IMG/VR virus record: IMGVR_UViG_3300029241_000184
DNA: 18,645 nucleotides
Direction: 5' to 3' (one strand)
Origin: a virus
Lineage: Duplodnaviria; Heunggongvirae; Uroviricota; Caudoviricetes
Position numbers and translations under genes: made by a program. The notes under the pieces were generated by a model. It ran no database searches. It saw only the letters and a list, made by a program, of their open reading frames with translations, and was not told where the DNA came from. This document shows positions 1 through 13,352 of this stretch, one piece after another (positions within the stretch are counted from its first letter, which is position 1; each line of letters starts with the position of its first letter).

Positions 1-54
1 GCTGATAGAAACAGAAGCCACTGGAGCACCTCAAAAACACCATCATACACTAAA

Positions 55-210
55 TCAGTAAGTTGGCAGCATCACCTCCATATTGTTCTTTTCAGCATAA
101 TCTTTGATATATTCGGACTGATTATGTAAAGAATATTGCTGATGGTCGGTAGACATCCTCAAGTACTGCGCGACCCTAACTCTATGATTTTTGTCATTTT
201 CGCTAGCCAT
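55..210 (-). pseudogene. Short ORF (51 aa) with a serine-recombinase-like N-terminus; probable truncated or frameshifted gene remnant
   Basis: My own translation of the minus strand from ATG at 210 gives MASENDKNHRVRVAQYLRMSTDHQQYSLHNQSEYIKDYAEKNNMEVMLPTY then a stop at 55-57. The R-x-S-T-D-x-Q / YSL.NQ / YAE pattern resembles the catalytic N-terminus of resolvase/invertase-type serine recombinases. Below the 60-aa ORF track threshold; too short to be a functional recombinase. Confidence 0.3.
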
Positions 211-1722: not shown

Positions 1723-1820
1723 GTTTGGGACCCTCGATTTTAGGACCCATCTTCGTGGGTCCCATTCAGGGTGCCATAACTCGTAGTTCTCAGCAATTCT
1801 CACTAGACTACAATAGACGT

Positions 1821-1854: not shown

Positions 1855-1888
1855 AGTAGACTTTACTGAACTTCAGTACATCAATATT

Positions 1889-1910
1889 TGGTGGGCTGGC
1901 GGAGTCTGAC
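1889..1910. other. Degenerate copy of the ssrA 3' end; likely attR of the P4-like satellite and junction between the two tandem islands
   Basis: tggtgggctggcggagtctgac versus the true ssrA 3' end tggtggagctggcgggagttgaac at 12775..12798 (about 20 of 24 positions with two 1-nt gaps), lying the same distance and order from the terminator-like hairpin as in the intact ssrA. Confidence 0.5.
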
Positions 1911-1961
1911 TTTGTCTTTTAATTGTCTGTATTTAATGGTTTTTTATTAAATTGAGATTTT

Positions 1962-1982
1962 GGATATACCTAAGCGTATACC
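1962..1982. repeat. Two GTATACC-type motifs (ggatatacc, cgtatacc); candidate integrase arm-type sites on the far arm
   Basis: Same heptamer family as the four copies at 12614..12661 next to int; acctaagcgtataccaat here versus acctaaacgtataccaat there. Confidence 0.4.
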
Positions 1983-2102
1983 AATTCTGCTTTGTAGGCA
2001 CAAAAATACAGTCATGCTGGTATGACAATTCCAACCCCGTCACAGCTTGTATCCATCTGGTCACACATGACAAAAGCAGGCAACCAATACTAAGAATTTA
2101 CT

Positions 2103-2762
2103 TTACGGCTCTTCGCTATTGGGGTTCTTAACTTTTTCCCATTCAATGCCCAACCCTTTAAATTTTTGTGCAAATGGGATTACTATGAGCGCAACACAAG
2201 CCCCTAATAGTGCCATTCTCTCAGTGGTTAAAAAATTAAATCGTATATCTGCAATTACTATAAGTAATAAGGCGACAGCAAGAAACCAAGTAACTCGTTG
2301 AAAAATATCCATCGTTTGAGATTTTTTCTGCCGAATATCATTTTTCCTAACTGCTGACTGCTCTGCGGTAAGGGCTCGAAAAGTTGGGAAAAGATTGAAA
2401 TCAGATTTAACTAATTCACCCGAATCACTGACTGAATACAGTGAAAATGGCAATGGGTTATTAGGCAGGGAGGATACGGTCACCAAGAAAAGTGGGATTT
2501 TTTCATTTCCAATTGCTTGTTTGTATCTTTTTAATTGATTTAGAGTGTTTTCGCTATGTGCAAATCTGTCTGACTTTATTTCAATAATAGCAAGATATTC
2601 TTTCTTTTCTGGATCTATAATTGCAAAGTCTGGTCTATATGTGTTTTTGCCATCGTTGGAGAAAAATGCTGGTTCGTATAATATAGAATCTTTGGTATAT
2701 CCTAGTGATAATAAGTATTCAGAGAATTTATTTTCCGCCTCTGAATGGTAATTGTTGTCCAT
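2103..2762 (-). CDS. Membrane-anchored protein with an N-terminal restriction-endonuclease-like (PD-(D/E)xK, HsdR-N-like) motif and two C-terminal transmembrane helices; AT-rich cargo gene
   Basis: 219-aa ORF with GAGAGGGA about 7 nt upstream of the ATG at 2762. N-terminal segment LGY...YRPDFAIIDPEKKEYLAIIEIKS carries a D ... E-I-K arrangement as in restriction-endonuclease-fold proteins; C-terminus has two hydrophobic stretches (WFLAVALLLIVIADI and ALLGACVALIVIPFA). Visibly AT-rich compared with the neighbouring primase gene. Confidence 0.7.
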   Translation of the reverse strand: MDNNYHSEAENKFSEYLLSLGYTKDSILYEPAFFSNDGKNTYRPDFAIIDPEKKEYLAIIEIKSDRFAHSENTLNQLKRYKQAIGNEKIPLFLVTVSSLPNNPLPFSLYSVSDSGELVKSDFNLFPTFRALTAEQSAVRKNDIRQKKSQTMDIFQRVTWFLAVALLLIVIADIRFNFLTTERMALLGACVALIVIPFAQKFKGLGIEWEKVKNPNSEEP

Positions 2763-2956
2763 TACAGTCCCTCTCTGCTGTGTGAAAACTAGTGAGCTAA
2801 ATTAATAAGGTAACTAAAAAACGCAAGAGATTCAATTGATTAACGAGTGATAGGTCAAGTCAAGGTCAAACTCGGCGATCATGATGGTTATCTTGTTGAA
2901 TCACAGCCAGACATGATGAATTTCTAGGTTGGAGAAAAAACTTTTTTTCAGGAAAA

Positions 2957-3058
2957 CTGTTCACACTGTTCACACTGTTCACACCGTTGTTTTTGCTTTT
3001 AATTTCATAGTGATACGTTGTGAATGGTTGGTAAACAGTGAACACTTTACTGTTCATT
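2957..3058. repeat. Iteron cluster: three tandem CTGTTCACA repeats (2957..2983) plus inverted and variant copies (gtgaaca 3038..3044, tgttcat 3052..3058); candidate ori-type alpha-binding iterons
   Basis: Tandem 9-bp repeats seen directly; the core TGTTCAC matches the P4 type I iteron octamer TGTTCACC that I recall as the alpha-protein binding site in P4 ori and crr. Lies immediately downstream of the alpha-like gene. Confidence 0.6.
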
Positions 3059-3108
3059 TTTGCCGTTTTGCAGGTAAAAAAAGACCGGCGATTGCCGGTC
3101 AGGGTAGA

Positions 3109-5442
3109 TTATTTTGCTACAGGGTCATCACATTTCGGCAGCCAGTCGGCGTTGCTTTCCTCTCTTAGTGTTAGATTGGTTTGTATGCCCTGATTTTTTC
3201 GGCGCTTCTCATAACTTAGCCCGTACTCTTTCAGCATAGCTGGCAGCCCCTTACCGAACATGGTGAGGCTCAGGGTGTTCCTGTAGCCGTGGGCCTCCAT
3301 ATACGCCAGATAGGCATGATACAGATACAGGCGCGGCTGACGCGGAATGATGTTGGCATTGCCAATATACATTCCCTCAGGCTCCGGCAGTGCTTCCAGA
3401 TAGCCGCAAAAATCAAATGTCGGGTCAGCATCGCGTTTAATACTGAGCGCCTCGTCCGAGTTCTGCTGTGACTGGAGCAGGGCGCGGGCGGTCATCGGGT
3501 CGCTGAACTTCTGCATAAGCTGCCGAACAATCACCGCCAGCTCACGGGCGATTTTATTCTTAAGCTGCGGGTCACGTTCCTCCGGGGCAATCTGTTCCGG
3601 GAAATGCAGAATCACCCGGCGCCGTGAGACACCGCCGCTACGGTCGGTAAAGCGCATCGGGTTATTGTTCACGGCCAGAATCACCGCTGGAATATGGGTG
3701 GAGTACGCATCCTTGTATTTCGGGTCAACGGAGACCGCATCCCCGCCGGTGATGGCCTTGAGTCCTGCCCCGTCACCACTCCATTTTTCCTGGTCAGGCA
3801 GGCGTATCAGCGAGAAGCCAATCAGCGCAGCGCGTTCACGCGGTGATTCCAGCGTTTCGATGGTGGCCGATGTGGCGTTATCTTCCCCGGCGAGCAGGGT
3901 CGCAATTTCGGCCAGAATACTTTTCCCGCTGCCACCCGGCCCGGTCACTTCGAGAAAGAGCTGCCAGTCGTAGCGGTTCGCCAGTACCATAAACAGGGCG
4001 GCAAGTATCACGTCGCGTTTTTCCGGTCGGCCACCGGCGGCACGGTCGAGCCAGCGCCAGAAATCCGGCGCATGGGTTTCCAGCGTTTCGCCCTCCACCG
4101 GTGGGGTAAAATCGACATCACAGAGTGTGCGCAGCCAGTGCGATTTATGATGCGGGCTGAAAGTACCGGTAGCGGTATCGAGTACGCCGTTACGAAAACC
4201 AATCAGACGGCGCGCCGGTGCGTCCTGCTGCGGAATAATCAGTTTCAGGGTCTCCACCACTGAGGCAATTTTCCCCGACGAGAACGGTGCGCGCAGACGC
4301 TGAAATAACCCGGCCACGTCGCGGGCAAAATCCGATGGCGGAATGATTTTCCATATACCGGCCTCATAGCGGGACAGGAGCTGGCCATTTGCGTCCACGG
4401 CCAGCGCTTCGCCGTAATGTTCATGCACCCGCATTGCCTTTTCACTGGTGCTCATGGCGGTAAATTCCGCCTCGCTCATGGTAGTGAAAGGACTGTCAGC
4501 CAGTGGCCGGATGGCGTCATAAATCGCTTTCCGCGTCGCCTCTTCGCCTTTCTGAACGAACGCATCATTCCAGTCACCGAACACCGGCGGCAGGGCAACA
4601 ACACCCTCACAGGCGTCTGCGGCCGCAGCGGCTTTTGTCTGGCCGGCGCCGTTAAGGTCACGGTCGGCGGCGAGGACAATCTGACAGGCCGGGTGTTTCT
4701 GACGGGCAAGGCTCGCCAGAGAAAAGAGGTTCACGGAGGACAGCGCCACCATGACGGTTTCGCTGGTCAGGTGATGTACGGTGAGTGCCGTCGCATAACC
4801 CTCCGCAATCCACAGGCGTTTTCCGGCCTGTTTTTTTCCTCCGATGACATGACATGTCCCTTTGACCTGACCGCCTTTCAGGGTGCGTTTGAGACCGTCA
4901 GCATTAATAAGCTGAAGGTTAACCAGTGCGCCGGTATCCTCATACAGCGGGACAACCACATCCCCGGCGCGGAACGTCACGCCGCCGGTTTTATGCATGA
5001 CTGTCAGTACCGGACATTCCCGGTCGGGGAACCCCTTGCGGGTGAGGTAGGCGTTGTCGGTGGCCGGGCGCGTTTTCTCCAGCAGTCTGACGGCCAGCGC
5101 GGCCGCCGCTTTGCGGTCGGCATCGGTTTCAGCCTCTGCGGCTGCCATCACTTCCGGGGCAACCGGCGACAGATTGCCGGTCACGGCGTTCACCTTCCCG
5201 GCGGCTTCTGACGGGGTCACGCCAAACACTTTTTCTACCAGCTTAAGCCCGTCACCCGCGCCGCACTGATTGCAGAACCACGTCCCGCGCCCTTCTTTAT
5301 CGTCAAAGCGAAAACGGTCAGAGCCGCCACACACCGGACAGGCCTGATGGCGGTTTTTAATCACCTTCACACCCAGCGCCGGAAGAATGCGCGGCCAGTG
5401 GCCGCACGCCTGTTTTACCGTTTCTGTTACGTTCATTTTCAT
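3109..5442 (-). CDS. P4 alpha-type primase/helicase (zinc-binding primase N-terminus plus helicase domain)
   Basis: ORF 3109..5493; preferred start at ATG 5442 (MKMNVTETV..., GAGGGAG upstream) giving 777 aa, the length of P4 alpha. N-terminal CPVCGG...CNQCG zinc-binding motif; Walker A-like GPGGSGKS in the C-terminal half. Confidence 0.9.
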   Translation of the reverse strand: MKMNVTETVKQACGHWPRILPALGVKVIKNRHQACPVCGGSDRFRFDDKEGRGTWFCNQCGAGDGLKLVEKVFGVTPSEAAGKVNAVTGNLSPVAPEVMAAAEAETDADRKAAAALAVRLLEKTRPATDNAYLTRKGFPDRECPVLTVMHKTGGVTFRAGDVVVPLYEDTGALVNLQLINADGLKRTLKGGQVKGTCHVIGGKKQAGKRLWIAEGYATALTVHHLTSETVMVALSSVNLFSLASLARQKHPACQIVLAADRDLNGAGQTKAAAAADACEGVVALPPVFGDWNDAFVQKGEEATRKAIYDAIRPLADSPFTTMSEAEFTAMSTSEKAMRVHEHYGEALAVDANGQLLSRYEAGIWKIIPPSDFARDVAGLFQRLRAPFSSGKIASVVETLKLIIPQQDAPARRLIGFRNGVLDTATGTFSPHHKSHWLRTLCDVDFTPPVEGETLETHAPDFWRWLDRAAGGRPEKRDVILAALFMVLANRYDWQLFLEVTGPGGSGKSILAEIATLLAGEDNATSATIETLESPRERAALIGFSLIRLPDQEKWSGDGAGLKAITGGDAVSVDPKYKDAYSTHIPAVILAVNNNPMRFTDRSGGVSRRRVILHFPEQIAPEERDPQLKNKIARELAVIVRQLMQKFSDPMTARALLQSQQNSDEALSIKRDADPTFDFCGYLEALPEPEGMYIGNANIIPRQPRLYLYHAYLAYMEAHGYRNTLSLTMFGKGLPAMLKEYGLSYEKRRKNQGIQTNLTLREESNADWLPKCDDPVAK

Positions 5443-5456
5443 CGTTGTTTTCTCCC

Positions 5457-5777
5457 TCAGTGCACTACCGGTACGGTGATGTGACGGGCGCAAAGCTCAT
5501 CCATCACGGCCAGCCCGAGAAAGGACAGCGACGGCGCGGCTTTGAGTGGACCGGCTTCCATTAAATCTTCCAGTAATGCACAGGCTATCTGGCGGCCTTT
5601 TTCCTCGCCGTGCTGGCGCAGGTAGAAGCCCTCCAGCTCGGTAGCGATGGCACTTTCCAGCGCGTCGAGGGTGAGGTTCGGGTAGCGGCGCTGGCGTTCG
5701 CACAGGGTCAGCCATGCACAGGCCACGGCGCGACGATACAGCGCGGCGCGTAATACGGGCGGTAATGGCTTTTTCAT
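5457..5777 (-). CDS. Hypothetical protein of the satellite early operon (106 aa)
   Basis: ORF whose start overlaps the stop of the upstream ORF (translational coupling), ending 15 nt before the alpha start; same strand and operon as the alpha gene. No recognisable motif. Confidence 0.55.
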
Positions 5778-6001
5778 ACGTTGCCCTCCCCGGTCAGCCA
5801 GTGCTGATTGCAGCGTTCAACCACGCCGTCGAGCTGGGCGGTCATGAGGTAAATCACGGAGGTGAGCTGTAACTGCTGCGCCGGGTCACGACGAACGGTG
5901 GCGCAGTCCTGTACCTGCATCAGGTCGCTGACGAGCTGGCCGACATTGCGCATATGCTCCAGACATTCGAGGTCACGGGCGGTAATGGTGGTGTGTCTCA
6001 T
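5774..6001 (-). CDS. Hypothetical small protein of the satellite early operon (75 aa)
   Basis: ORF with start/stop overlaps (ATGA) to both neighbours on the same strand, typical of coupled small genes in P4-like early operons. Confidence 0.5.
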
Positions 6002-6192
6002 GCGCGCACCTCCGCAACAGGCAGACGGCCAGCAAATGAGAGGACGTAATCGCGAACGAGGGAAAGGCGTGCGGCGTGCTCATCACCGGCAACGGTGCGG
6101 AGCATACAAATACGGGGTTTACGGTCTGCACGACGAACGGCGGCAAACACAAAAACAAATTGCGGGTGTAACGGGGTGAGGATAGTAGCCAT
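5998..6192 (-). CDS. Hypothetical small protein (64 aa), possibly Icd-like; short form of the 185-aa ORF
   Basis: Internal ATG at 6192 ([19 protein letters not shown]...) preceded by GGAGG about 8 nt upstream; the longer 5998..6555 extension is low-complexity and overlaps the AlpA-like gene, so the short form is preferred. The Icd-like label is a recollection of similar annotations, not verified. Confidence 0.45.
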
Positions 6193-6551
6193 GATGGCAG
6201 CCTCCATTGAGTAGCGGTTACTGCTACCACCGGAAACGCCAATTTCACTGGTGGCAGCCCGAACGGGGTTGGCGTAACCGGCCTCAATGGATACCGGCCA
6301 GCCCGAAGGCTGCCCCGCCCGGACTACCATTATCTTGCTGGAACCATGGTGTATAAAAAGACACCACAACCCGGAAAATGGGTGTGCCTGAGCTACGACG
6401 AAAAAAAAGACGCACGGCGCGTCTGGTGTCGCCATTGAGTTTCGCGGAACGCCAATTCCGGCTGTCGATTTTGCGACAGCGGGAAAACTATACCTGGAAA
6501 CGGCGAAAAGAAGCAAGCCAGAAAAAGGGGCTGAATGCTGAACGGTCATCA

Positions 6552-6818
6552 TCATGCGTCACAGCCCCGGTTGCGTTCGGCAATGCGATCTGCCATCCAT
6601 GCGGTGATTTCAGACTGCGCCCACGCCACGTTTTTACCGCCCAGGCTGATTTGTTTCGGGAAGGCTTCCCGGCTGATGAGGTCATAAATGGTCGACCGGG
6701 ACAGGCCACACAGATGCATCACTTCGGGCAGGCGGATAAAGCGCTCCTGAACGGCATCAGAAACCGGCATCAGCGGCGCGGCAGGGGCAGAAGACGGGGA
6801 AGAAAAAGCGGTGTGCAT
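6552..6818 (-). CDS. alpA: AlpA-family phage transcriptional regulator (small DNA-binding, excisionase-like)
   Basis: [54 protein letters not shown] matches the AlpA/excisionase-like helix-turn-helix family; GAGGT upstream of the ATG at 6818. An alternative start at 6770 (MPVSD) is possible. Confidence 0.8.
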
Positions 6819-7087
6819 CGGGCTACCTCACAAAGTCCATACAGTGCCGGTCGTGTCCGTCCGGCTTCGGGTAGCTCTCTATTTTGTGAATATTTTCCCT
6901 CAGGGCAACAAGTCTTTTTATAGCTCCTCGTCACACAACAGAGCGATTTTTGAACAATGGCAAACGCTGGCAAACAGATGCAAATCAATGCATTACATTG
7001 CAGTAACTTTAAGTACTTTCACTTATATATTTCCTCATAATTAATCGGAAAAAAGACTAAATCCGACACCCCAGGCAAAAAGCAAAA

Positions 7088-7192
7088 GGTGAACAGTAGT
7101 GAACAGTCGGTGAACAGTTACACCCTCAACTGTTCACCCTTTATCTTACTGTATTACTTATCTTTTTCTTTTCAGTGAACAGTAGTGAATAG
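7088..7192. repeat. Second iteron cluster: GGTGAACAGT x3 (7088..7117), inverted TGTTCACC (7131..7138), GTGAACAG (7175..7182) and variant gtgaatag; candidate crr-type alpha-binding iterons in the divergent early/late control region
   Basis: Direct and inverted copies of the same octamer as at 2957..3058, about 4.1 kb away; I recall that P4 ori and crr are separated by about 4.5 kb. Confidence 0.6.
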
Positions 7193-7268
7193 TTATAAGT
7201 AAAAAAACAAACAGTGAGTAAGGTTTTCCTGAGACCTTTCTCTGGCCAGCCGGGTTTTAAGGTCTGTT

Positions 7269-7286
7269 TGTGCCATTTTTGCCACA
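7269..7286 (+). promoter_or_regulatory. TGT-N12-ACA dyad upstream of the sid-like gene; candidate Ogr/Delta activator site of the late promoter
   Basis: TGTgccatttttgccACA about 75-90 nt upstream of the ATG at 7359; P2/P4 late promoters carry a TGT-N12-ACA element near -55. No clear -10 identified, so low confidence. Confidence 0.3.
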
Positions 7287-7358
7287 ACGGCAATGAATCG
7301 TGTTGTTGTGTCTGGCGCGGCAGAATCTCCTCAGGTTGAAACGAAGAGGAGACCCGAC

Positions 7359-8096
7359 ATGACTCAGACCGCTGTTATTCCCGACTACCTTAAACCTGCA
7401 ATGGAACGCCTTGAGACTGCCCGCTCGGCGCATCTCGTCAATGCCAGCCGTATGGATGAAACCACGACGGCCATCAGCCAGGTGCAAACGCAAAAAAAGG
7501 AACTGGAGCAGGAAAACGGCAATGATTCCGGCGCATGGCGCGCCGCCTTTCGTGCCGGTGGTGCTGTCATTACCGACGAGCTGAAACAACGCCATCTGGC
7601 GCGCGTGGCACGGCGGGAACTGGCGCAGGAATGTGACAGCATGAACGAGGTACTGTCTTTTGAGCTGGACAGGCTCAAAGGAGCCTGTGACCGCACGGCC
7701 AGAGCATACCGTCAGGCACATCACGGCGTCCTCAGTCAGTATGCAGAGCATGAACTTGATGCTGCCCTGCGTGAAAGCTGCGGTGCCCTCATCAGAGCAA
7801 TGAAACTCAACATACTGGTTCTGAATAATCCGCTTGCTAATACGACCGGGCATCAGGGATATATCGAACCGGAAAAAGTTGTAATGCAGCAGGTGAAAGC
7901 GTGGCTTGAACAGGCCGTAAAGGGCTGCAATATCCGTCTGACCGATGAACCGGTGCTGTTTAAAACAGGGCTGTCGGCTTCCACACTGCCGCATATGGAA
8001 CATGACGTTGCGACCATGCCCGGTCAGCGAAAAGTCTGGCAGGAAAAAATGTGGGAACGTGAAGCTGACCTGAAAGCACGGGGGTTATTGTCATGA
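7359..8096 (+). CDS. sid: Sid-like protein (P4 capsid size determination / external scaffold), first gene of the late operon
   Basis: ORF 7293..8096 trimmed to ATG 7359 (MTQTAVIPDYLKP..., AAGAGGAG upstream) giving 245 aa, close to P4 Sid (244 aa); position immediately upstream of the Ogr/Delta-like and psu-like genes matches the P4 sid-delta-psu order. Called from size and synteny only. Confidence 0.55.
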   Translation: MTQTAVIPDYLKPAMERLETARSAHLVNASRMDETTTAISQVQTQKKELEQENGNDSGAWRAAFRAGGAVITDELKQRHLARVARRELAQECDSMNEVLSFELDRLKGACDRTARAYRQAHHGVLSQYAEHELDAALRESCGALIRAMKLNILVLNNPLANTTGHQGYIEPEKVVMQQVKAWLEQAVKGCNIRLTDEPVLFKTGLSASTLPHMEHDVATMPGQRKVWQEKMWEREADLKARGLLS

Positions 8097-8338
8097 TGCG
8101 CTGCCCTTTCTGCCGCACGGCGGCACACGTTCGCACCAGCCGCTATATGTCTGACAGCGTCAAAGAGAGTTACCTGCAGTGCCAGAATGTGCACTGCTCG
8201 GCGACATTCAAAACGCATGAGTCCATCTTTGAAGTGATACGTTCGCCGGTCGTCGATGAGAAACCCGCGCCGGTGCCGACAGCCCCCGTGGCACCCCGTC
8301 GGGTAAAAGGCTGCTACAGCTCGCCGTTCCGCCATTAA
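8093..8338 (+). CDS. Ogr/Delta-family zinc-finger late-gene transcriptional activator
   Basis: MMRCPFCRTAAHVRTSRYMSDSVKESYLQCQNVHCSATFKTHES has the C-x2-C ... C-x4-C arrangement and RTSRY / QCQN motifs of P2 Ogr and P4 Delta; start overlaps the stop of the sid-like gene. Confidence 0.85.
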   Translation: MMRCPFCRTAAHVRTSRYMSDSVKESYLQCQNVHCSATFKTHESIFEVIRSPVVDEKPAPVPTAPVAPRRVKGCYSSPFRH

Positions 8339-8354
8339 TCAGGAGAGACAACCC

Positions 8355-8921
8355 GTGACCACTCTGACCTTACAGCAGGCCTATGACGCCTGTCAGACGA
8401 ACAAAACCGCGTGGCTGAACCGTAAAACCGAACTGGCCGCCGCAATGCAGGAATATCAGGAATTATTGCTGGATGACAATGTATCAGGCTCCCGCAGATT
8501 ACAGATGCTGCGTGACCTGATTGACGTAAAAAAATGGGAAGTTAATCAGGCCGCCGGTCGCTACATCTTCTCGCATGAGGAGGTGCAGCGCATCAGCATC
8601 CGTAACCGGCTGCATGATTTTATGCAGCAGAACGGCGCAGAGCTGGCCGCCGCACTGGCACCGGAGCTGATGGGGATTAAAAACCAGCCCGCGATGATAA
8701 AAAATCGCGCGCTTGACCGTTCAGTCTCTTACCTGAGAGAAGCTCTTTCCGTCTGGCTGACCGCTGGAAATGACATTAATTATTCTGCACTGGATAACGA
8801 CATCTTAACGGCCATCGGATACAGGCCTGACGCGCCTTCGCGGGATGATAATCGTGAAAAATTCACCCCTGCACAGAACATGATTTACACCCGTCGACGC
8901 GCCGGACTGGCCGCGCAGTAG
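8355..8921 (+). CDS. psu: Psu-like protein (P4 polarity suppression / capsid decoration)
   Basis: 188 aa (P4 Psu is 190 aa), third gene of the sid-delta-psu type operon; N-terminal region ...QQAYDACQTNKTAWLNRKTELAAA... and QAAGRYI resemble Psu as I recall it. Confidence 0.75.
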   Translation: MTTLTLQQAYDACQTNKTAWLNRKTELAAAMQEYQELLLDDNVSGSRRLQMLRDLIDVKKWEVNQAAGRYIFSHEEVQRISIRNRLHDFMQQNGAELAAALAPELMGIKNQPAMIKNRALDRSVSYLREALSVWLTAGNDINYSALDNDILTAIGYRPDAPSRDDNREKFTPAQNMIYTRRRAGLAAQ

Positions 8922-8967
8922 TCTGTCAAAAAATCCCTGTAAATCCCGTCATTTTTCCCGAATTTAG

Positions 8968-8994
8968 CCATGCATCCCTAAGGTGCATGGTTTT
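8968..8994 (+). terminator. Candidate rho-independent terminator after the psu-like gene
   Basis: Inverted repeat ccatgca / tgcatgg with a 9-nt loop followed by tttt. Confidence 0.4.
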
Positions 8995-9094
8995 GCATGC
9001 GTTTTCCCGACCCTGCACTCCCTGCCAGCGCCAGTTGCGGCGCGGCCTGAGGCCACCTTTGCACCTGCATTAAAAGCGGTCCCTTAAGCGGGCA

Positions 9095-9113
9095 GGCGTG
9101 GCGGGGAGAGCAT
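9095..9113. other. cos-like site (P2/186/P4-type 19-nt cohesive end sequence)
   Basis: ggcgtggcggggagagcat differs at one position from the phage 186 cohesive end GGCGTGGCGGGGAAAGCAT as I recall it, and at three from P2 (GGCGAGGCGGGGAAAGCAC); lies just downstream of psu, where cos sits in P4. Confidence 0.55.
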
Positions 9114-9375
9114 TGCGCGCTAAGTTAAAGATACTTTTAATTTTACAACTACGTTGTGATATCTTTTTAACTCGCTAATTCAATAGTGATAAAACAATTT
9201 TTTATAGCTAATAAGAATCAATTCCAGACTAACAATCGTCAAAAACTATGTTTTGTGAATGGCTATCTAAAAATACTGGCTTAATTATTTGACGTGATCT
9301 AAAGTACTGATGAAATTATTATACTGATTTAATTTTTTAACTGCTAAAAACATTAACAAAAAATAAGGGATTCAC

Positions 9376-11361
9376 ATGGCAGAGAAATCATTTAATGTAG
9401 AAGTACAGATGGATTATTTAGATAAGGTTTCTAAATCTTCTGCATTACAAGCAATCGCTGAGTTGGTATGGAATGCCTTAGATGCTGATGCTGAAAATGT
9501 ATATGTTGATTTGACAGAGTCTGAATTAGGACTCTCGCATATATTTATCAGGGATGATGGTAATGGTATTCCCTATGAGAATGCAGAAAAATTATTTAGT
9601 TCACTGGGCGGATCATGGAAAAAAGACAAGGTTTTATCAGAAAGAAAATCTCGTTTTTTACACGGAAAAGAAGGGCAGGGACGTTTTAAGGCATTCTCAA
9701 TAGGTCGATATATTGAGTGGGATACTACTTATTTACTTGATGATGTATATTATGAATATAAAATAAAAGGAATAGCTGATAATAAGAAAAAGATTTCAGT
9801 TTCTGATAAGGTAGTATCAAGTGAAGTTAAATCAGGAACAGTTGTTTCTATATTGGAATTGGTGAAAAACTTCACCTCTTTGACACCTCAAAAACTATCT
9901 GAGTTTCTTTCCACTACACTTGCTTTATATCTTAGTAAATACCCATCCGTAAAAGTATTTGTAAATCGAGAACAAATCGATCCAACAGCACAGATTTTAT
10001 TTGATACAAGCTATAAATTAGATGATGTAGTTTATTGTGATGAATTACATTCATATGAGTTACAAGTTATTGAATGGAAGTCAGCTAAAGAAAATGAGAT
10101 TTTTTTATGCGACAAAGAAGGTTTTCCCTTAATAAGTTATGAGAAGAAAATTAGAGGGACTGGTACATATTCTTATTCTGTTTATTTGAAGTCTACACAT
10201 TTGACCAAACTTTCCCATGAGGGTACTTTGTCGCTCATGGATTTAGAGCCTTCTTTAAGCCCTGTATTAAATAAAGTCGAAGGTTTGATAAAGGAACACT
10301 TCCGGAAAAGAGATCATGAAAAGTCAAGGGAGTTAATTGATAAATGGAAAAATGAAGGTGTTTATCCGTATGTTGGTAAGGCCGAAAATATTGTTGAGGA
10401 TGCTGAAAGAAAAGTATTCGATATTATGGCCATCAATGTTATAAAATACATACCACAATTTGATAATGGCGATCTTAAACTTAAGAAATTTCAGTTTAAA
10501 TTACTCAAGCATATTGTTGGGAGTTGCCCTGATGACTTGAGAACTATATTAGAGGAGGTTCTCTCGCTTCCTAAGGAAAAACAAGCTGAATTGGCTGAGA
10601 TATTAAGGGATGCCTCATTGTCAGCTGTTATTAGTGTTTCCAAAATAATTACTGATAGATTGAAGTTCATATCTGGGCTTGAGAATGTATTATTTCATCC
10701 GAATACAAGAAAAGTATTCAAAGAGAGAAGTCAGCTTCATAAAATAATGGCGGATAATACATGGTTTTTTGGTGAGTCTTTTACATTGAGTGTCAATGAT
10801 AAGTCACTAACTGAAGTATTAAAAGTACATTTGGAAAAGCAAGGGATTGATATTCCAGTTGATGAGAAAGTAACTAGGATAGATGGTAGTGTAGGTATTG
10901 TTGATTTAATGCTTACTAGAAGTATAGGCAAAAATTACCCAGATGAGCGTGAGCATATTATTATCGAATTAAAGGCACCTAAAGTAAATATAGGTCAATC
11001 AGAAATAGAACAGGTTAAATCCTATGCGTATGCAGTTGCTGAAGACGCAAGATTTAATGGTTTAAAAACAAAGTGGAACTTCTGGGTTATATCGAATGAG
11101 CTCACAACTTATGCTCTCAGAGAATTAAAACAAAAAAACCTTCCTGAAGGTGCAATATATCAAGCTGAAGAAATGACTATTTGGATAAAAACTTGGTCCC
11201 AACTTATTCAAGAGAACAAACATAGATTGGGTTTTCTACAGAATCAGCTTAATATTTCGTATGACCGTGAAGATGGACTACAGTTCTTAAAGCAAAAGTA
11301 TGCTGAGTACACTGAGGGCGTTGTATTTGAAAATGAATCACAGGATGAGTATATAGATTAA
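9376..11361 (+). CDS. 661-aa GHKL-type (HATPase_c, Bergerat-fold) ATPase fused to a C-terminal PD-(D/E)xK-like nuclease motif; candidate single-gene anti-phage defense protein carried as satellite cargo
   Basis: Single uninterrupted ORF with AAGGGA 6 nt upstream of the ATG. N-terminus: E29-x3-N33-A-x-D36-A (N box; E29 codon at 9460), D60-D-G-N-G64-I (G1 box, 9556..9567), G97-K-E-G-Q-G102 (G2 box, 9664..9681). C-terminus: GIVD510LML ... IIIE531LK533 (D at 10903..10905, E-L-K at 10966..10974) in the arrangement of PD-(D/E)xK nucleases. Strongly AT-rich with A/T-ending codons, unlike the flanking P4 core genes. Confidence 0.85.
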   Translation: MAEKSFNVEVQMDYLDKVSKSSALQAIAELVWNALDADAENVYVDLTESELGLSHIFIRDDGNGIPYENAEKLFSSLGGSWKKDKVLSERKSRFLHGKEGQGRFKAFSIGRYIEWDTTYLLDDVYYEYKIKGIADNKKKISVSDKVVSSEVKSGTVVSILELVKNFTSLTPQKLSEFLSTTLALYLSKYPSVKVFVNREQIDPTAQILFDTSYKLDDVVYCDELHSYELQVIEWKSAKENEIFLCDKEGFPLISYEKKIRGTGTYSYSVYLKSTHLTKLSHEGTLSLMDLEPSLSPVLNKVEGLIKEHFRKRDHEKSRELIDKWKNEGVYPYVGKAENIVEDAERKVFDIMAINVIKYIPQFDNGDLKLKKFQFKLLKHIVGSCPDDLRTILEEVLSLPKEKQAELAEILRDASLSAVISVSKIITDRLKFISGLENVLFHPNTRKVFKERSQLHKIMADNTWFFGESFTLSVNDKSLTEVLKVHLEKQGIDIPVDEKVTRIDGSVGIVDLMLTRSIGKNYPDEREHIIIELKAPKVNIGQSEIEQVKSYAYAVAEDARFNGLKTKWNFWVISNELTTYALRELKQKNLPEGAIYQAEEMTIWIKTWSQLIQENKHRLGFLQNQLNISYDREDGLQFLKQKYAEYTEGVVFENESQDEYID

Positions 11362-11371
11362 CATAATTGAA

Positions 11372-11402
11372 AGGCTCGCCAGTTTATTCTGGCGAGTTTC
11401 TT
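11372..11402 (+). terminator. Rho-independent terminator after the cargo gene, convergent with the end of int
   Basis: Stem ctcgccag / ctggcgag (8 bp) with a 6-nt loop, followed by tttctt. Confidence 0.5.
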
Positions 11403-12591
11403 AAAGACTGGATACTTTATTACCCCACCAATTCATTAATTCTATTCTTTGCGGAAGATATATAGAGCGATTATAAGCTCTTCGTACTTCATCTTTATAA
11501 CTATGAGCTAGTGCTGCCTCAATAACATCAGCATTGAATCCTGCTTCATTCATGGCAGTACTGGCTATAGAACGTAAACCATGTGCAACAAGCTTTCCAC
11601 CATAACCAATTCTCTTCAGCGCAGCATTAGCAGTCTGGCTATTCATTGGCAGCTTAGGGTCATTTCTGCTAGGAAAAACATGTTCTCGATGGGCACTGAT
11701 TGGCTTCATCACTTCTAAAATTTCTAATGCTTGAGGAGACAAAGGTACGATGTGCTCTCGTTTAGCCTTCATCCGTTCGGCTGGAATCGTCCAAAGCTTC
11801 GCATCAAGATCGATCTCTTCCCACCGAGCTCCGGAAGCCTCAGAAGGACGCACAAGGGTCAGGAGCTGCCACTCAATTAGACAGCGAGTCGAAACAGATA
11901 GATTCGACATGACTAGAGAACGCATCAGCTTTGGCAATTCCTCTGGCCGCAGCGTCGGCATATTTTGCTTTTTGGGCTTCTCAAAGGCCATCCCAACTCC
12001 TGAGGCTGGGTTCGCATCAATCAGACCCGTGTTTACGGCATAAATCATTATCTCGTTAATGCGTTGCACCAGTCGACGTACAGTCTCAAGCGCCCCACGA
12101 GCTTTGATGGGCTCAAGAGCTTCAACCAGTGTCCGGGCTTTGATTTGCTGAACAGGGATCTCACCGATGGCAGGGAATACATCTTTCTCCAGTGAGCGCC
12201 AAATGTCTTTTGCGTAATCAGGGGTAACGCTTTTGCTTTTGAGCTGGAACCAGTTAGCGGCGACCGTTGAAAAAATACTGTCCAGTGCGATTTGCTGCTG
12301 TTCCTCTGCAACTTCAGCTTGAATCTGTGGGTCGATTCCATTGGCTAATAAGGCAAGGTAATCAGCTCTTAACCCTCGGGCATCAGCAAGCGATAGGGCG
12401 GGGAAGGCTCCGAGTCCCATCATTGTCCGCTGTTTTGTTGCCGGACGTTGATAACGGAAACGCCAGAGCTTTTTGCCGCTGGTTTTCACTATCAGGAAAA
12501 GCCCATCGCCATCATGTAGCGTTAGATCCTTCTCTAGCGCTTTAGCGCGCAGAACTTCGGTGTTGGTCAGGGGGCGTGTTGTCCGTGCCAC
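11401..12591 (-). CDS. int: Tyrosine recombinase, P4-family integrase of the satellite, adjacent to ssrA
   Basis: 396-aa ORF; N-terminal LTLHDGDGLFL...GKKLWRFRY as in P4-type integrases; C-terminal HGLRS and AYNRSIY catalytic boxes; same orientation as ssrA and immediately downstream of it. Confidence 0.92.
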   Translation of the reverse strand: MARTTRPLTNTEVLRAKALEKDLTLHDGDGLFLIVKTSGKKLWRFRYQRPATKQRTMMGLGAFPALSLADARGLRADYLALLANGIDPQIQAEVAEEQQQIALDSIFSTVAANWFQLKSKSVTPDYAKDIWRSLEKDVFPAIGEIPVQQIKARTLVEALEPIKARGALETVRRLVQRINEIMIYAVNTGLIDANPASGVGMAFEKPKKQNMPTLRPEELPKLMRSLVMSNLSVSTRCLIEWQLLTLVRPSEASGARWEEIDLDAKLWTIPAERMKAKREHIVPLSPQALEILEVMKPISAHREHVFPSRNDPKLPMNSQTANAALKRIGYGGKLVAHGLRSIASTAMNEAGFNADVIEAALAHSYKDEVRRAYNRSIYLPQRIELMNWWGNKVSSL

Positions 12592-12613
12592 TGTGGCCGC
12601 TCCTTCATGAATT

Positions 12614-12661
12614 GGTATACGCTTTTAGGTATACATCCTACCGTATACCTAAACGTATACC
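12614..12661. repeat. Four direct copies of a GTATAC(C) motif at 12- to 14-bp spacing between the int start and the ssrA terminator; candidate integrase arm-type sites
   Basis: ggtatac (12614), ggtatac (12628), cgtatacc (12642), cgtatacc (12654); the same motif recurs at 1962..1982 at the other end of the element. Confidence 0.45.
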
Positions 12662-12707
12662 AATAATCACCGGATTTAGCCGGATGCTCTCGGACAACTA
12701 CAGACAC

Positions 12708-12742
12708 AAAAAAGCCCACAGGGCTTGTGCCGTGCGGGCTTT
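12708..12742 (-). terminator. ssrA rho-independent terminator
   Basis: On the minus strand, stem aagcccgcacggcacaagccctgtgggctt followed by tttttt, about 33 nt downstream of the mature tmRNA 3' end. Confidence 0.7.
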
Positions 12743-12774
12743 CAGGATTTCACCGGACGTATCCGGATCATAAT

Positions 12775-13138
12775 GTGGTGGAGCTGGCGGGAGTTGAACC
12801 CGCGTCCGAAATTCCTACATCCTCGGTACTACATGCTTAGTCAGTCTTTATATTCGCTTGCCAGCTGCGGACGGACACGCCACTAACAAACTAGCCTGAT
12901 TAAGTTTTAACGCTTCAACCCCAGGCAGGGCTTCCACGCGATCTCTTTTGGGTTTGACCTCTCTTGATCCCCGTCCTAAGAGCGGAGGCTAGGGAGAGAG
13001 GGCTCTAAGCAGGTTATTAAGCTGCTAAAGCGTAGTTTTCGTCGTTTGCGACTATTTTTTGCGGCTTTTTACGAGGCCAACCGCCCCTCGGCATGCACCT
13101 TGGGTTTCGCAAATCCCGTCGAATCCAGAATCAGCCCC
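12775..13138 (-). ncRNA. ssrA: tmRNA (SsrA, transfer-messenger RNA)
   Basis: Minus strand reads GGGGCTGATTCTGGATTCGACGGG ... GGAGTTGAACCCGCCAGCTCCACCA; internal tag reading frame at 13017..13049 (minus) encodes ANDENYALAA followed by a stop. Length about 363 nt; ends are within a few nt. Confidence 0.95.
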
Positions 13139-13352
13139 AATGTGTAAAGGTAAGTATACCAGATTTATGAGCGCCATGACCAGCCTCAATGGCGTTATCG
13201 TTAAAGATTTAGCACCCATGTAGCCTGATTTTTATTCGATTAAGCAATGGGATGGCAACATTTGTGTCGGATGTGATAGCCAATAAGATGTTCATTCGCG
13301 CCGCCGGAGAGGGAGGCGCGGTGAGGAACTGGTCAATAATTGGAGTGCAGGT

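What the first reader, a model, noticed from the sequence alone, without database searches (positions are those of the whole stretch)
12614..12661. Four evenly spaced GTATAC(C) repeats between int and ssrA, repeated at the far end of the element
The copies at 12614, 12628, 12642 and 12654, and the related pair at 1962..1982, are arranged as expected for arm-type integrase binding sites on the two arms of attP. This supports the element boundaries proposed here and implies the recombination sites are intact.
Basis: inference. Interest (0 to 1): 0.4.

Follow-up and report, generated by a model that had tools for sequence, protein, structure and literature searches.

The report
Integrase arm sites of P4-like satellite
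The GTATACC repeats are real and are very probably the accessory ("arm") docking sites of the integrase of a 10.9-kb P4-like satellite prophage inserted at the end of the E. coli tmRNA gene; this is an ordinary, well-understood kind of feature, here in a version whose motif has apparently not been described.

Summary
There are six 12-bp units (consensus nCGTATACCWAW). Four lie 19-72 bp upstream of the int start (12611-12664) and two lie at the far end (1962-1985).

A before/after comparison with E. coli B places the crossover in TGGTGG (the CCACCA 3' end of ssrA). The element is therefore 1889-12781, and the repeats sit 111 bp and 67 bp from the crossover. The annotated attP arm repeats of phage P4 have the same geometry (112 and 66 bp).

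In 14 related loci from other genera the sites and distances are kept while the spacers diverge. One clade changed the proximal pair, the int-nearest site and, where found, the distal pair from GTATACC to GTGTACC, together with substitutions concentrated in the integrase N-terminal arm-binding domain. The excisionase (Vis/AlpA) does not track the motif.

More distant integrase clades (CP4-57, the neighbouring island, tRNA-site relatives) carry other motifs in the same layout. The int-proximal sites also overlap a conserved promoter-like element, which suggests autorepression.

Verdict: arm-type integrase sites, a new member of a known kind, of low to moderate interest.

The parts
1889..12781 (-). 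Whole P4-like satellite prophage (10,887 bp plus one extra copy of the 6-bp crossover), integrated at the 3' end of ssrA and in tandem with a second island
   Evidence: Three-way junction alignment with E. coli B REL606. The direct repeat has a spacing of 10,887. RefSeq annotation of 99.8% identical copies lists int, psu, delta, sid-like, AlpA/Vis, Icd-like, DUF5375 and alpha primase. The alpha/crr region is 81% identical to P4 DNA.
12611..12622 (-). Arm site A, GCGTATACCAAT, inverted, 19 bp upstream of the int GTG, in the presumed 5' UTR
   Evidence: CGTRTACCAAT is invariant in 15 aligned loci.
12625..12636 (-). Arm site B, ATGTATACCTAA, inverted; the least conserved site, at the presumed transcription start
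   Evidence: It varies in relatives: GTATGCC, ATATACC, GTGGGCC, GTGTACC.
12641..12652 (+). Arm site C, CCGTATACCTAA, the first unit of the int-proximal tandem pair, lying within the promoter spacer
   Evidence: L018 lost exactly this 12-nt unit.
12653..12664 (+). Arm site D, ACGTATACCAAT, the second unit of the int-proximal tandem pair; it contains the -35-like TTGGTA and lies 111 bp from the crossover
1962..1973 (+). Arm site E, GGATATACCTAA, the first unit of the int-distal tandem pair, 67 bp from the crossover
1974..1985 (+). Arm site F, GCGTATACCAAT, the second unit of the int-distal tandem pair
12776..12781 (-). Crossover segment TGGTGG (CCACCA, the 3' terminus of ssrA) at attL
   Evidence: It is the only block shared by the unoccupied site, attL and attR.
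1889..1894 (-). Crossover segment TGGTGG at attR (the junction with the second island)
1895..1912 (-). Element-borne core arm (GCTGGCGGAGTCTGAC..., that is GACTCCGCCAGC in ssrA sense), an imperfect copy of the ssrA T-arm/acceptor 3' strand with single-base deletions
   Evidence: The same sequence is found in 5 independent elements.
11401..12591 (-). int: a 396-aa tyrosine integrase with Arm-DNA-bind_3, Phage_int_M and Phage_integrase domains; GTG start preceded by AAGGAG
   Evidence: RefSeq uses the same start.
12635..12663 (-). Candidate Pint: -35 TTGGTA (12663->12658), a 17-nt spacer, -10 TAGGAT (12640->12635)
   Evidence: It scores 8/12 here, below the scan threshold. The homologous position scores 10/12 (TATAAT) in L010 and 9/12 (TAGAAT) in L007. 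TAnnAT is conserved in A3. This part is an inference.
12709..12745 (-). Element-borne copy of a rho-independent terminator that terminates ssrA after integration
   Evidence: D1, I3. It is shared with CP4-57 and other ssrA islands.
12670..12694 (-). Three TCCGR pentamers at exact 10-bp spacing (12670-74, 12680-84, 12690-94), candidate Vis/AlpA or bending-protein sites next to site D
   Evidence: Read directly. They are conserved in A3 and are related to ATCCGGATTTCAACGGAC in P4. Untested.
12753..12767 (-). Two more TCCGG pentamers, 10 bp apart, next to the crossover
   Evidence: Read directly. Untested.
6552..6818 (-). vis/alpA: an 88-aa AlpA-family excisionase, 70% identical to P4 Vis
12776..13138 (-). 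ssrA (tmRNA), the integration target

Best explanation
The six 12-bp units (nCGTATACCWAW) are the arm-type binding sites of the element's own heterobivalent tyrosine integrase.

The C-terminal domains of Int act at the core, with the crossover in the CCACCA end of ssrA. The N-terminal Arm-DNA-bind_3 domain docks on the arm sites on both sides of the core: four on the int side (111-164 bp away) and two on the other side (67-90 bp away). Int protomers can thus bridge arm and core and assemble the intasome, for integration (attP x attB) and, with Vis/AlpA, for excision (attL x attR).

In the prophage, the four int-proximal sites end up in attL, between the element-supplied ssrA terminator and int. 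There they overlap the probable int promoter: site D covers the -35, C the spacer, B the start and A the 5' UTR. Bound Int should therefore also repress its own gene, as reported for P4 and KplE1.

Shown here: the sites, their geometry, their conservation, their co-variation with the Int N-domain, and the element boundaries. Inferred: physical binding, a requirement for recombination, and autorepression.
For: (1) Int carries PF13356 Arm DNA-binding domain (E 4.5e-22), plus the central and catalytic domains. The catalytic R/H/R/H/Y columns are invariant against P4 Int.

(2) Boundaries. E. coli B has island 2 directly at ssrA. The window has the element inserted exactly there, and only TGGTGG is shared by all three junctions. 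In strains with 99.8% identical copies, similarity stops at window 1888-1894.

(3) The geometry equals that of P4, whose GenBank record annotates 'attP arm sequence repeat' 12-mers (WTATGCCCCCAA). P4 has one inverted unit at the int start, a tandem pair 112 bp from the CCA end of the core and a tandem pair 66 bp beyond it, in the same relative orientations. Int identity to P4 is only 37%.

(4) Phylogenetic footprint. In 14 loci from Enterobacter, Pantoea, Erwinia, Kosakonia, Pectobacterium, Dickeya, Citrobacter, Mixta and others (Int 74-95% identical), the sites are the conserved blocks. The distance from CCACCA to the first site is 112-113 or 120-123 bp, and the distal pair lies 80-82 bp from CCGCCAGC, although spacer and flank sequences differ.

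(5) Concerted change. In L009-L013 and L018, sites D, C (where present) and A read GTGTACC/GGTACAC, and so does the distal pair in the two loci where it was found (L010, L013). Site B is degenerate there (GTGGGCC, GTGGTCC or GTGTACC). Elements with GTATACC proximal sites have GTATACC distal pairs (WIN, L008, L017, L007).

(6) Of the 29 Int alignment columns that fully separate the two motif groups, 20 lie in residues 1-95 (Fisher p 1e-7). The GTGTACC group is 81-85% identical to this Int outside the N-domain but only 72-74% inside it.

(7) Vis/AlpA does not track the motif. This element's AlpA is 95% identical to that of L013 (GTGTACC) but 55-68% identical to those of L007, L008 and L016 (GTATACC). 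It is 70% identical to P4 Vis, whose element has the unrelated motif ATGCCCCC.

(8) Other Int clades have other motifs in the same layout, with two direct units 12 bp apart plus one or two inverted units just upstream of int. Examples are CP4-57 TAGGCCCA, island 2 GGGACCC and a tRNA-site clade TTAGGCATA with a distal pair in L020.

(9) A decayed island remnant without int has degenerate sites (L017).

(10) Literature. P4 Int represses Pint by direct DNA binding, and KplE1 IntS arm sites overlap PintS (PMC2951348; PMC7286903). The P4-family IntS of ICEMlSymR7A needs five arm motifs, TGKTGGTATC (PMC11963761).
Against: There is no binding, footprint or recombination data for this element. The primary P4 papers (Pierson & Kahn 1987; Cali 2004; Piazzolla 2006) were not held, so support for P4 rests on a GenBank annotation and secondary citations.

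The GTATACC-to-GTGTACC co-variation is probably a single evolutionary event, so statistically it counts as one observation.

Site B is poorly conserved. No IHF consensus (up to 1 mismatch) lies in either arm, so the bending factor is unidentified. The promoter in this window scores only 8/12. The element-borne core arm is offset by single-base deletions relative to ssrA, which a simple core-site model does not explain.
Confidence: 0.85

Rival explanations
1. The repeats are operators of the excisionase/regulator Vis (AlpA family) rather than of Int.
For: In P4 and KplE1 the RDF also binds in the att arm and lowers int expression. An AlpA-family gene is present.
Against: Nearly identical AlpA proteins accompany different motifs, and different AlpA proteins accompany the same motif. 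P4 Vis is 70% identical, yet the P4 motif is unrelated. RDF sites normally lie on one arm only, whereas these lie on both. A separate, better candidate for Vis exists: the TCCGR pentamers at 10-bp spacing, which are shared with P4.
Confidence: 0.04
2. The int-proximal copies are only a transcriptional operator for Int autorepression of Pint and play no part in recombination.
For: They overlap a conserved promoter-like element. Autorepression is documented for P4 and KplE1.
Against: The distal pair, 10.7 kb away, next to the other junction, at a conserved distance and co-varying in motif, has no promoter role. The geometry around the core equals that of P4 attP. In ICEMlSymR7A all arm sites are needed for integration.
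Confidence: 0.05
3. The repeats are sites for a host GntR-family regulator (UxuR/ExuR), whose operator is aaaTTGGTATACCAAttt.
For: Sites A, D and F contain the exact half-site AATTGGTATAC. The operator sequence is quoted in PMC8092373.
Against: No copy has the second half-site (GTATACgc/gt instead of GTATACCAA). Relatives shift to GTGTACC in concert with the Int N-domain. Sister clades have unrelated motifs in the same layout.
Confidence: 0.03
4. The repeats are a chance clustering of a short AT-rich palindrome.
For: GTATAC alone is only mildly enriched in the window (6 vs 1.97 expected; 5 of 200 shuffles reach 6). One copy (13154) does look like chance.
Against: In addition, the sites are conserved at fixed distances in 14 loci from other genera.
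Confidence: 0.01

Closest known systems
attP arm sequence repeats of satellite phage P4 (NC_001609 features 3915-3965 and 4151-4174; Pierson & Kahn 1987)
   Same: Both have 12-bp units and tandem pairs at 12-bp spacing. Both have an inverted unit or units next to the int start. The proximal pair is about 112 bp from the CCA end of the tRNA-like core, and the distal pair about 66 bp beyond it in the same orientation. The element type is the same (int, alpha, vis, sid, delta, psu, ori/crr repeats), and Vis is 70% identical.
   Different: The motif is GTATACC rather than ATGCCCCC. There are two inverted units instead of one, and no copy inside int. The target is ssrA instead of leuX. Int is only 37% identical. 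The core match to the host gene is imperfect (single-base deletions), whereas P4 has 20 identical bp.
CP4-57 (E. coli K-12) and other P4-family islands at ssrA, including island 2 of this window
   Same: The crossover locus and the element-supplied terminator are the same. So is the layout, with two direct units 12 bp apart plus an inverted unit just upstream of int.
   Different: The motifs differ: TAGGCCCA in CP4-57 and GGGACCC in island 2, whose Int is 52% identical. These are not P4-like satellites.
Lambda Int arm-type sites P1, P2, P'1-P'3
   Same: Both are heterobivalent Int systems with arm sites on both sides of the core, unrelated in sequence to the core, and more sites on the int-adjacent arm (established knowledge; summarised in PMC2951348).
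   Different: The N-domain family differs (PF13356 versus the lambda type), as do the motif and the spacing. No IHF consensus was found here.
KplE1 IntS P' sites overlapping PintS; ICEMlSymR7A IntS P1-P5 (TGKTGGTATC)
   Same: The arm sites overlap the int promoter, giving autorepression. A P4-family Int requires all its arm motifs for integration. The ICEMlSymR7A motif shares TGGTAT with the one found here.
   Different: The elements, targets and RDF families differ. Those sites have been tested experimentally; these have not.

Membership tests
Arm-type binding sites of a heterobivalent tyrosine integrase | The cognate integrase has an N-terminal arm-binding domain | tested here: met
   PF13356 Arm-DNA-bind_3 at residues 8-92, E 4.5e-22. 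It is homologous to the solved apo domains 3JU0 and 3JTZ.
Arm-type binding sites of a heterobivalent tyrosine integrase | Repeated motif, unrelated to the core, inside the element on both sides of the crossover | tested here: met
   Four units lie 111-164 bp from TGGTGG on the int side and two lie 67-90 bp on the other side. The junctions are defined and the sites.
Arm-type binding sites of a heterobivalent tyrosine integrase | Sites and their distances to the core conserved in related elements while spacers drift | tested here: met
   The sites are degenerate in an int-less remnant.
Arm-type binding sites of a heterobivalent tyrosine integrase | Motif specificity follows the integrase N-domain | tested here: met
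   The change to GTGTACC is concerted across both arms. Of the 29 discriminating Int columns, 20 lie in residues 1-95. This is probably one evolutionary event; the deeper clades each have their own motif.
Arm-type binding sites of a heterobivalent tyrosine integrase | Direct binding by the Int N-domain | not testable with these tools
   This needs EMSA or footprinting.
Arm-type binding sites of a heterobivalent tyrosine integrase | Required for integration and/or excision | not testable with these tools
   This needs mini-attP integration and excision assays with mutated sites.
P4-like satellite prophage | P4 gene set (int, alpha primase-helicase, vis/alpA, sid, delta, psu) and alpha-binding ori/crr repeats | tested here: met
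   See the RefSeq annotation of identical copies and the Pfam hits for alpha and AlpA. The alpha/crr region is 81% identical to P4 DNA. TGTTCAC repeats lie at 2921-2990 and 7057-7110, matching the P4 'ori type 1 repeat' features.
RDF (Vis/AlpA) binding sites | Motif follows the RDF protein | tested here: not met
UxuR/ExuR (GntR-family) operator | 18-bp palindrome AAATTGGTATACCAATTT with both half-sites | tested here: not met
   Only one half-site is present per copy.
Sigma-70 promoter of int overlapped by the sites | -35 and -10 hexamers with a 17-nt spacer at a conserved position | tested here: inconclusive
   The match is 8/12 here and was not reported by the scan. At the homologous position L010 and L007 score 10/12 and 9/12, and TAnnAT is conserved. 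No transcript data are available.

The most novel reading that the evidence does not exclude
Arm-site specificity may act as the private 'address' that keeps tandem islands at ssrA mechanically independent. All these elements use the same 6-bp crossover (CCACCA), yet neighbours in an array carry different arm motifs: GTATACC next to GGGACCC in this window, and GTATACC next to GTGTACC on one Pantoea contig (L007/L018). The GTATACC-to-GTGTACC pair, a single base pair changed in most sites of both arms together with a cluster of about 20 N-domain substitutions, would then be a natural minimal specificity switch for the Arm-DNA-bind_3 (DUF4102) fold. No DNA complex has been solved for that fold.
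Probability: 0.35. Interest if true: 0.45.

Novelty: new member of a known kind. Interest (0 to 1): 0.27.

Why it matters
It fixes the exact ends, the crossover and the accessory sites of a P4-like satellite family that is present in about 8% of complete E. coli genomes and carries anti-phage cargo. The whole attP (about 300 bp) can therefore now be cloned for integration vectors or excision assays.

It shows that P4 attP geometry is preserved at 37% integrase identity while the arm motif changes freely.

It also offers a natural one-base-pair specificity pair (GTATACC/GTGTACC) for working out how the widespread DUF4102 arm-binding domain reads DNA.

None of this changes current understanding of site-specific recombination.

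Tried and rejected
- IHF. Scanning for WATCAANNNNTTR with up to 1 mismatch gave no site in either arm and no enrichment in the window (27 vs 20.5 expected). I make no IHF claim.
- Promoter scan of the window. The only promoter-like hit was the ssrA promoter. The Pint proposal rests on the homologous positions in L010 and L007.
- Far end of island 2, to test whether GGGACCC recurs there. The copy in the window is cut by IS1 at 1-76, and the E. coli B copy is also a remnant ending at IS1. No distal pair was found in L026-L030 within 10 kb. This remains unresolved.
- Primary P4 papers (Piazzolla 2006, Cali 2004) and Williams 2003, 'Traffic at the tmRNA gene'. None is held.
- Literature search for the motif string. 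It returned only the UxuR operator and unrelated primers.
- PDB. Only apo structures of the arm domain exist, so the discriminating residues could not be mapped onto a DNA interface.
- Crossover inside CCGCCAGC. I rejected this because the element-borne copy lacks the T of GCT|CCACCA in five independent contexts.

Full report
**Context**

The window is the E. coli grpE-nadK-recN-bamE-ratA-smpB-ssrA region. ARAGORN finds one tmRNA gene at 12776-13138 on the minus strand. Downstream of its 3' end lie two integrase genes, both on the minus strand: 11401-12591 (Int1, 396 aa) and 493-1722 (Int2, 409 aa). Each has an Arm DNA-binding domain (PF13356), the phage-integrase central domain and the catalytic domain. 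They are 52% identical to each other, and Int1 is 37% identical to P4 Int.

The DNA between them is a P4-like satellite prophage. Copies that are 99.7-99.8% identical occur in six complete E. coli genomes. They are annotated with int, an ATP-binding cargo protein, psu, an ogr/delta-like gene, a sid-sized gene, an AlpA-family regulator, an Icd-like protein, DUF5375 and the primase-helicase. The alpha/crr region is 81% identical to P4 DNA.

**The observation**

GTATACC occurs exactly six times in the window, against 0.97 expected; 0 of 200 shuffles reach that count. The positions are 12614-20(-), 12628-34(-), 12643-49(+), 12655-61(+), 1976-82(+) and 13154-60(+). A seventh, near-exact copy (ATATACC) is at 1964-70.

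The spacing of the four clustered copies is 14, 14 and 12 bp. GTATAC is palindromic, so orientation is given by the flanking bases. Extending the flanks gives six 12-mers:
- A GCGTATACCAAT (12611-22, -)
- B ATGTATACCTAA (12625-36, -)
- C CCGTATACCTAA (12641-52, +)
- D ACGTATACCAAT (12653-64, +)
- E GGATATACCTAA (1962-73, +)
- F GCGTATACCAAT (1974-85, +)

They form three '...CCTAA / ...CCAAT' couples. The repeat finder reports the C-D/E-F match (20 of 21 bases) and a perfect 16-nt inverted match between A and F. Chance expectations for such matches in this window are 0.0025 and 0.08. In shuffles of the 184-nt int-ssrA spacer, any 7-mer reaches four copies in only 0.2-0.9% of trials. The copy at 13154 lies in the -10 region of the ssrA promoter, outside the element, lacks the extended consensus, and fits the chance expectation.

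**Boundaries**

E. coli B (REL606, BL21) and E. coli C carry island 2 directly against ssrA. I aligned that junction with the two junctions in the window. The left flank of the window's attR equals the E. coli B left flank. The right flank of attL equals the E. coli B right flank (ssrA). The only segment common to all three is TGGTGG, which is CCACCA, the 3' terminus of tmRNA.

The element is therefore 1889-12781, or 10,887 bp counting one copy of the crossover. That agrees with the 10,887-bp repeat spacing and with the point where similarity to single-element strains stops (window 1888-1894). On integration the element supplies a new spacer and a rho-independent terminator for ssrA (12709-12745).

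**Position of the repeats**

Site D ends 111 bp from the crossover, and site E begins 67 bp beyond it on the other side.

The GenBank record of P4 annotates 12-bp 'attP arm sequence repeats' (WTATGCCCCCAA). One inverted unit overlaps the int start. A tandem pair at 3942-3965 lies 112 bp from the CCA end of the 20-bp core, and another tandem pair at 4151-4174 lies 66 bp beyond the corresponding hexamer. All are in the same relative orientations as here. The architecture is thus preserved almost to the base pair at 37% integrase identity, while the motif is entirely different.

**Related elements**

A scan of one genome per species returned 80 loci. Fourteen have Int 74-95% identical to Int1. 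They come from Enterobacter, Pantoea, Erwinia, Phytobacter, Mixta, Winslowiella, Citrobacter, Kosakonia, Pectobacterium and Dickeya, and they sit at ssrA or, for L018, in tandem behind another such element.
- In the alignment of their int-upstream regions, the blocks ATTGGTAYACG (site D), GGTAYACG (site C) and CGTRTACCAAT (site A) are the conserved islands. Site B is variable.
- The distance from CCACCA to the first site is 112-113 or 120-123 bp, two spacer variants about one helical turn apart.
- Where the far end lies within the fetched DNA, a tandem pair sits 80-82 bp from the element-borne core CCGCCAGC. The sequence on its inner side is unrelated between loci, and the AT-rich spacer differs. 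The same holds for an E. coli relative with different cargo (L002).
- L015 and L017 have one or two extra TGTATACCAAT units. L018 has lost exactly one 12-nt unit.
- A decayed island remnant without int has degenerate copies.

**Co-variation**

Six loci (L009-L013, L018) read GGTACAC/GTGTACC at the proximal pair and at the int-nearest site. Site B is degenerate in most of them, and L018 has lost site C. Their distal pairs, found in L010 and L013, read GGTACAC as well. All GTATACC-type elements with a visible far end have GGTATAC distal pairs.

I aligned the integrases and excluded two pseudogenes. Twenty-nine columns fully separate the two motif groups, and 20 of them lie in residues 1-95 (Fisher p about 1e-7). 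The GTGTACC group is closer to Int1 than the Pectobacterium/Dickeya GTATACC group outside the N-domain (81-85% against 75-76%). Inside the N-domain it is more distant (72-74% against 77-78%).

The excisionase does not follow the motif. This element's AlpA is 95% and 90% identical to those of two GTGTACC elements, but only 55-68% identical to those of three GTATACC elements. It is 70% identical to P4 Vis although the P4 motif is unrelated.

Deeper clades each have their own motif in the same layout, with two direct units 12 bp apart and one or two inverted units just before the int ribosome-binding site:
- TAGGCCCA in K-12 CP4-57
- GGGACCC in island 2 of this window and in L026-L030
- TTAGGCATA in a tRNA-site clade, with a distal pair in L020
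- other motifs in further loci

**Regulatory overlap**

At the position homologous to window 12663-12635, the scan tool finds a sigma-70-like promoter in relatives. It has -35 TTGGTA inside site D, a 17-nt spacer containing site C, and -10 TATAAT (L010, 10/12) or TAGAAT (L007, 9/12) between sites C and B. The window has TAGGAT (8/12), which is below the threshold. TAnnAT is conserved across the alignment.

Bound Int would therefore occlude its own promoter. This matches what is reported for P4, where Int represses Pint by direct binding, and for KplE1 IntS (PMC2951348; PMC7286903). For another P4-family integrase, IntS of ICEMlSymR7A, five arm motifs (TGKTGGTATC) are all needed for integration (PMC11963761).

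**Rivals**
- Vis/AlpA operators are disfavoured by the lack of co-variation and by the presence of sites on both arms.
- A host UxuR/ExuR operator shares the half-site AATTGGTATAC (PMC8092373). No copy has the second half-site, and the motif shifts with Int in relatives.
- A purely regulatory role does not explain the distal pair.
- Chance is excluded by the cross-genus conservation.

**Limits**

Nothing here shows physical binding or a requirement for recombination. The GTATACC/GTGTACC co-variation is probably one event. No IHF consensus was found in either arm. Only apo structures of the arm domain exist. The primary P4 papers were not available.

**Verdict**

This is a new member of a well-known kind of site, useful for defining the element but not surprising.

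Noticed in passing
window 12670-12694 and 12753-12767: There are five TCCGR pentamers at exact 10-bp spacing, in two clusters flanking the element-borne ssrA terminator, between the crossover and arm site D. They are conserved in relatives (A3). CP4-57 has TCCGA repeats, island 2 has GTCTA at 10-bp spacing, and P4 has ATCCGGATTTCAACGGAC at the same place. They are candidate Vis/AlpA (RDF) or bending-protein sites.
   Followed up: partly
window 1895-1912; L008, L010, L013, L018, L020 far ends: The element-borne copy of the gene's 3' end is systematically one base shorter just before the terminal CCACCA (GCCAGC-CCACCA vs GCCAGCTCCACCA), and it also lacks a C in the T-arm. A tRNA-site clade shows the same thing (GTGC-GACCA vs GTGCCGACCA). 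The core-type sites of attP and attB are therefore offset by 1 bp, which I cannot explain.
   Followed up: partly
window 1727-1763: Island 2 has GGGACCC, AGGACCC and GGGTCCC at 15-bp spacing immediately upstream of its int ATG (1722). These are its own presumed arm sites. Its distal arm could not be found, because the island is truncated by IS1 both here and in E. coli B.
   Followed up: partly
window 1-76: This is the terminal sequence of IS1, which cuts island 2 downstream of int2.
   Followed up: no
window 2921-2990 and 7057-7110: There are clusters of ACTGTTCAC/TGTTCAC repeats that correspond to the 'ori type 1 repeat' (alpha-binding) units of P4 in crr and ori. The satellite therefore appears to keep both replication regions.
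   Followed up: partly
window 9376-11361 (+) and 2103-2762 (-): There is cargo at both ends of the satellite. One is a 661-aa protein with a GHKL ATPase domain (HATPase_c_3) plus a weak HSDR_N_2 match, lying in the P4 psu-int hotspot. The other is a 219-aa HSDR_N_2 protein next to attR. PADLOC gives only weak REase_II hits for the first and none for the second, so they are possibly an uncharacterised anti-phage pair.
   Followed up: partly
window 13154-13160: A seventh GTATACC (cTGGTATACt) lies in the extended -10 region of the ssrA promoter, outside the element. It is probably chance, but it resembles the arm half-site TTGGTATAC.
   Followed up: no
L007 and L018 (same contig DKJK01000011); L017 15115-15225: Related satellites form tandem arrays at ssrA with different arm motifs, GTATACC followed by GTGTACC. 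There is also an int-less remnant whose arm sites have decayed (TTGGTCATAAACAAGGCATACGG).
   Followed up: partly
L005-L018 upstream regions: The spacer between CCACCA and the first arm site comes in two sequence variants, 112-113 bp and 120-123 bp long. They differ by about one helical turn, so the phasing of arm and core is kept.
   Followed up: no
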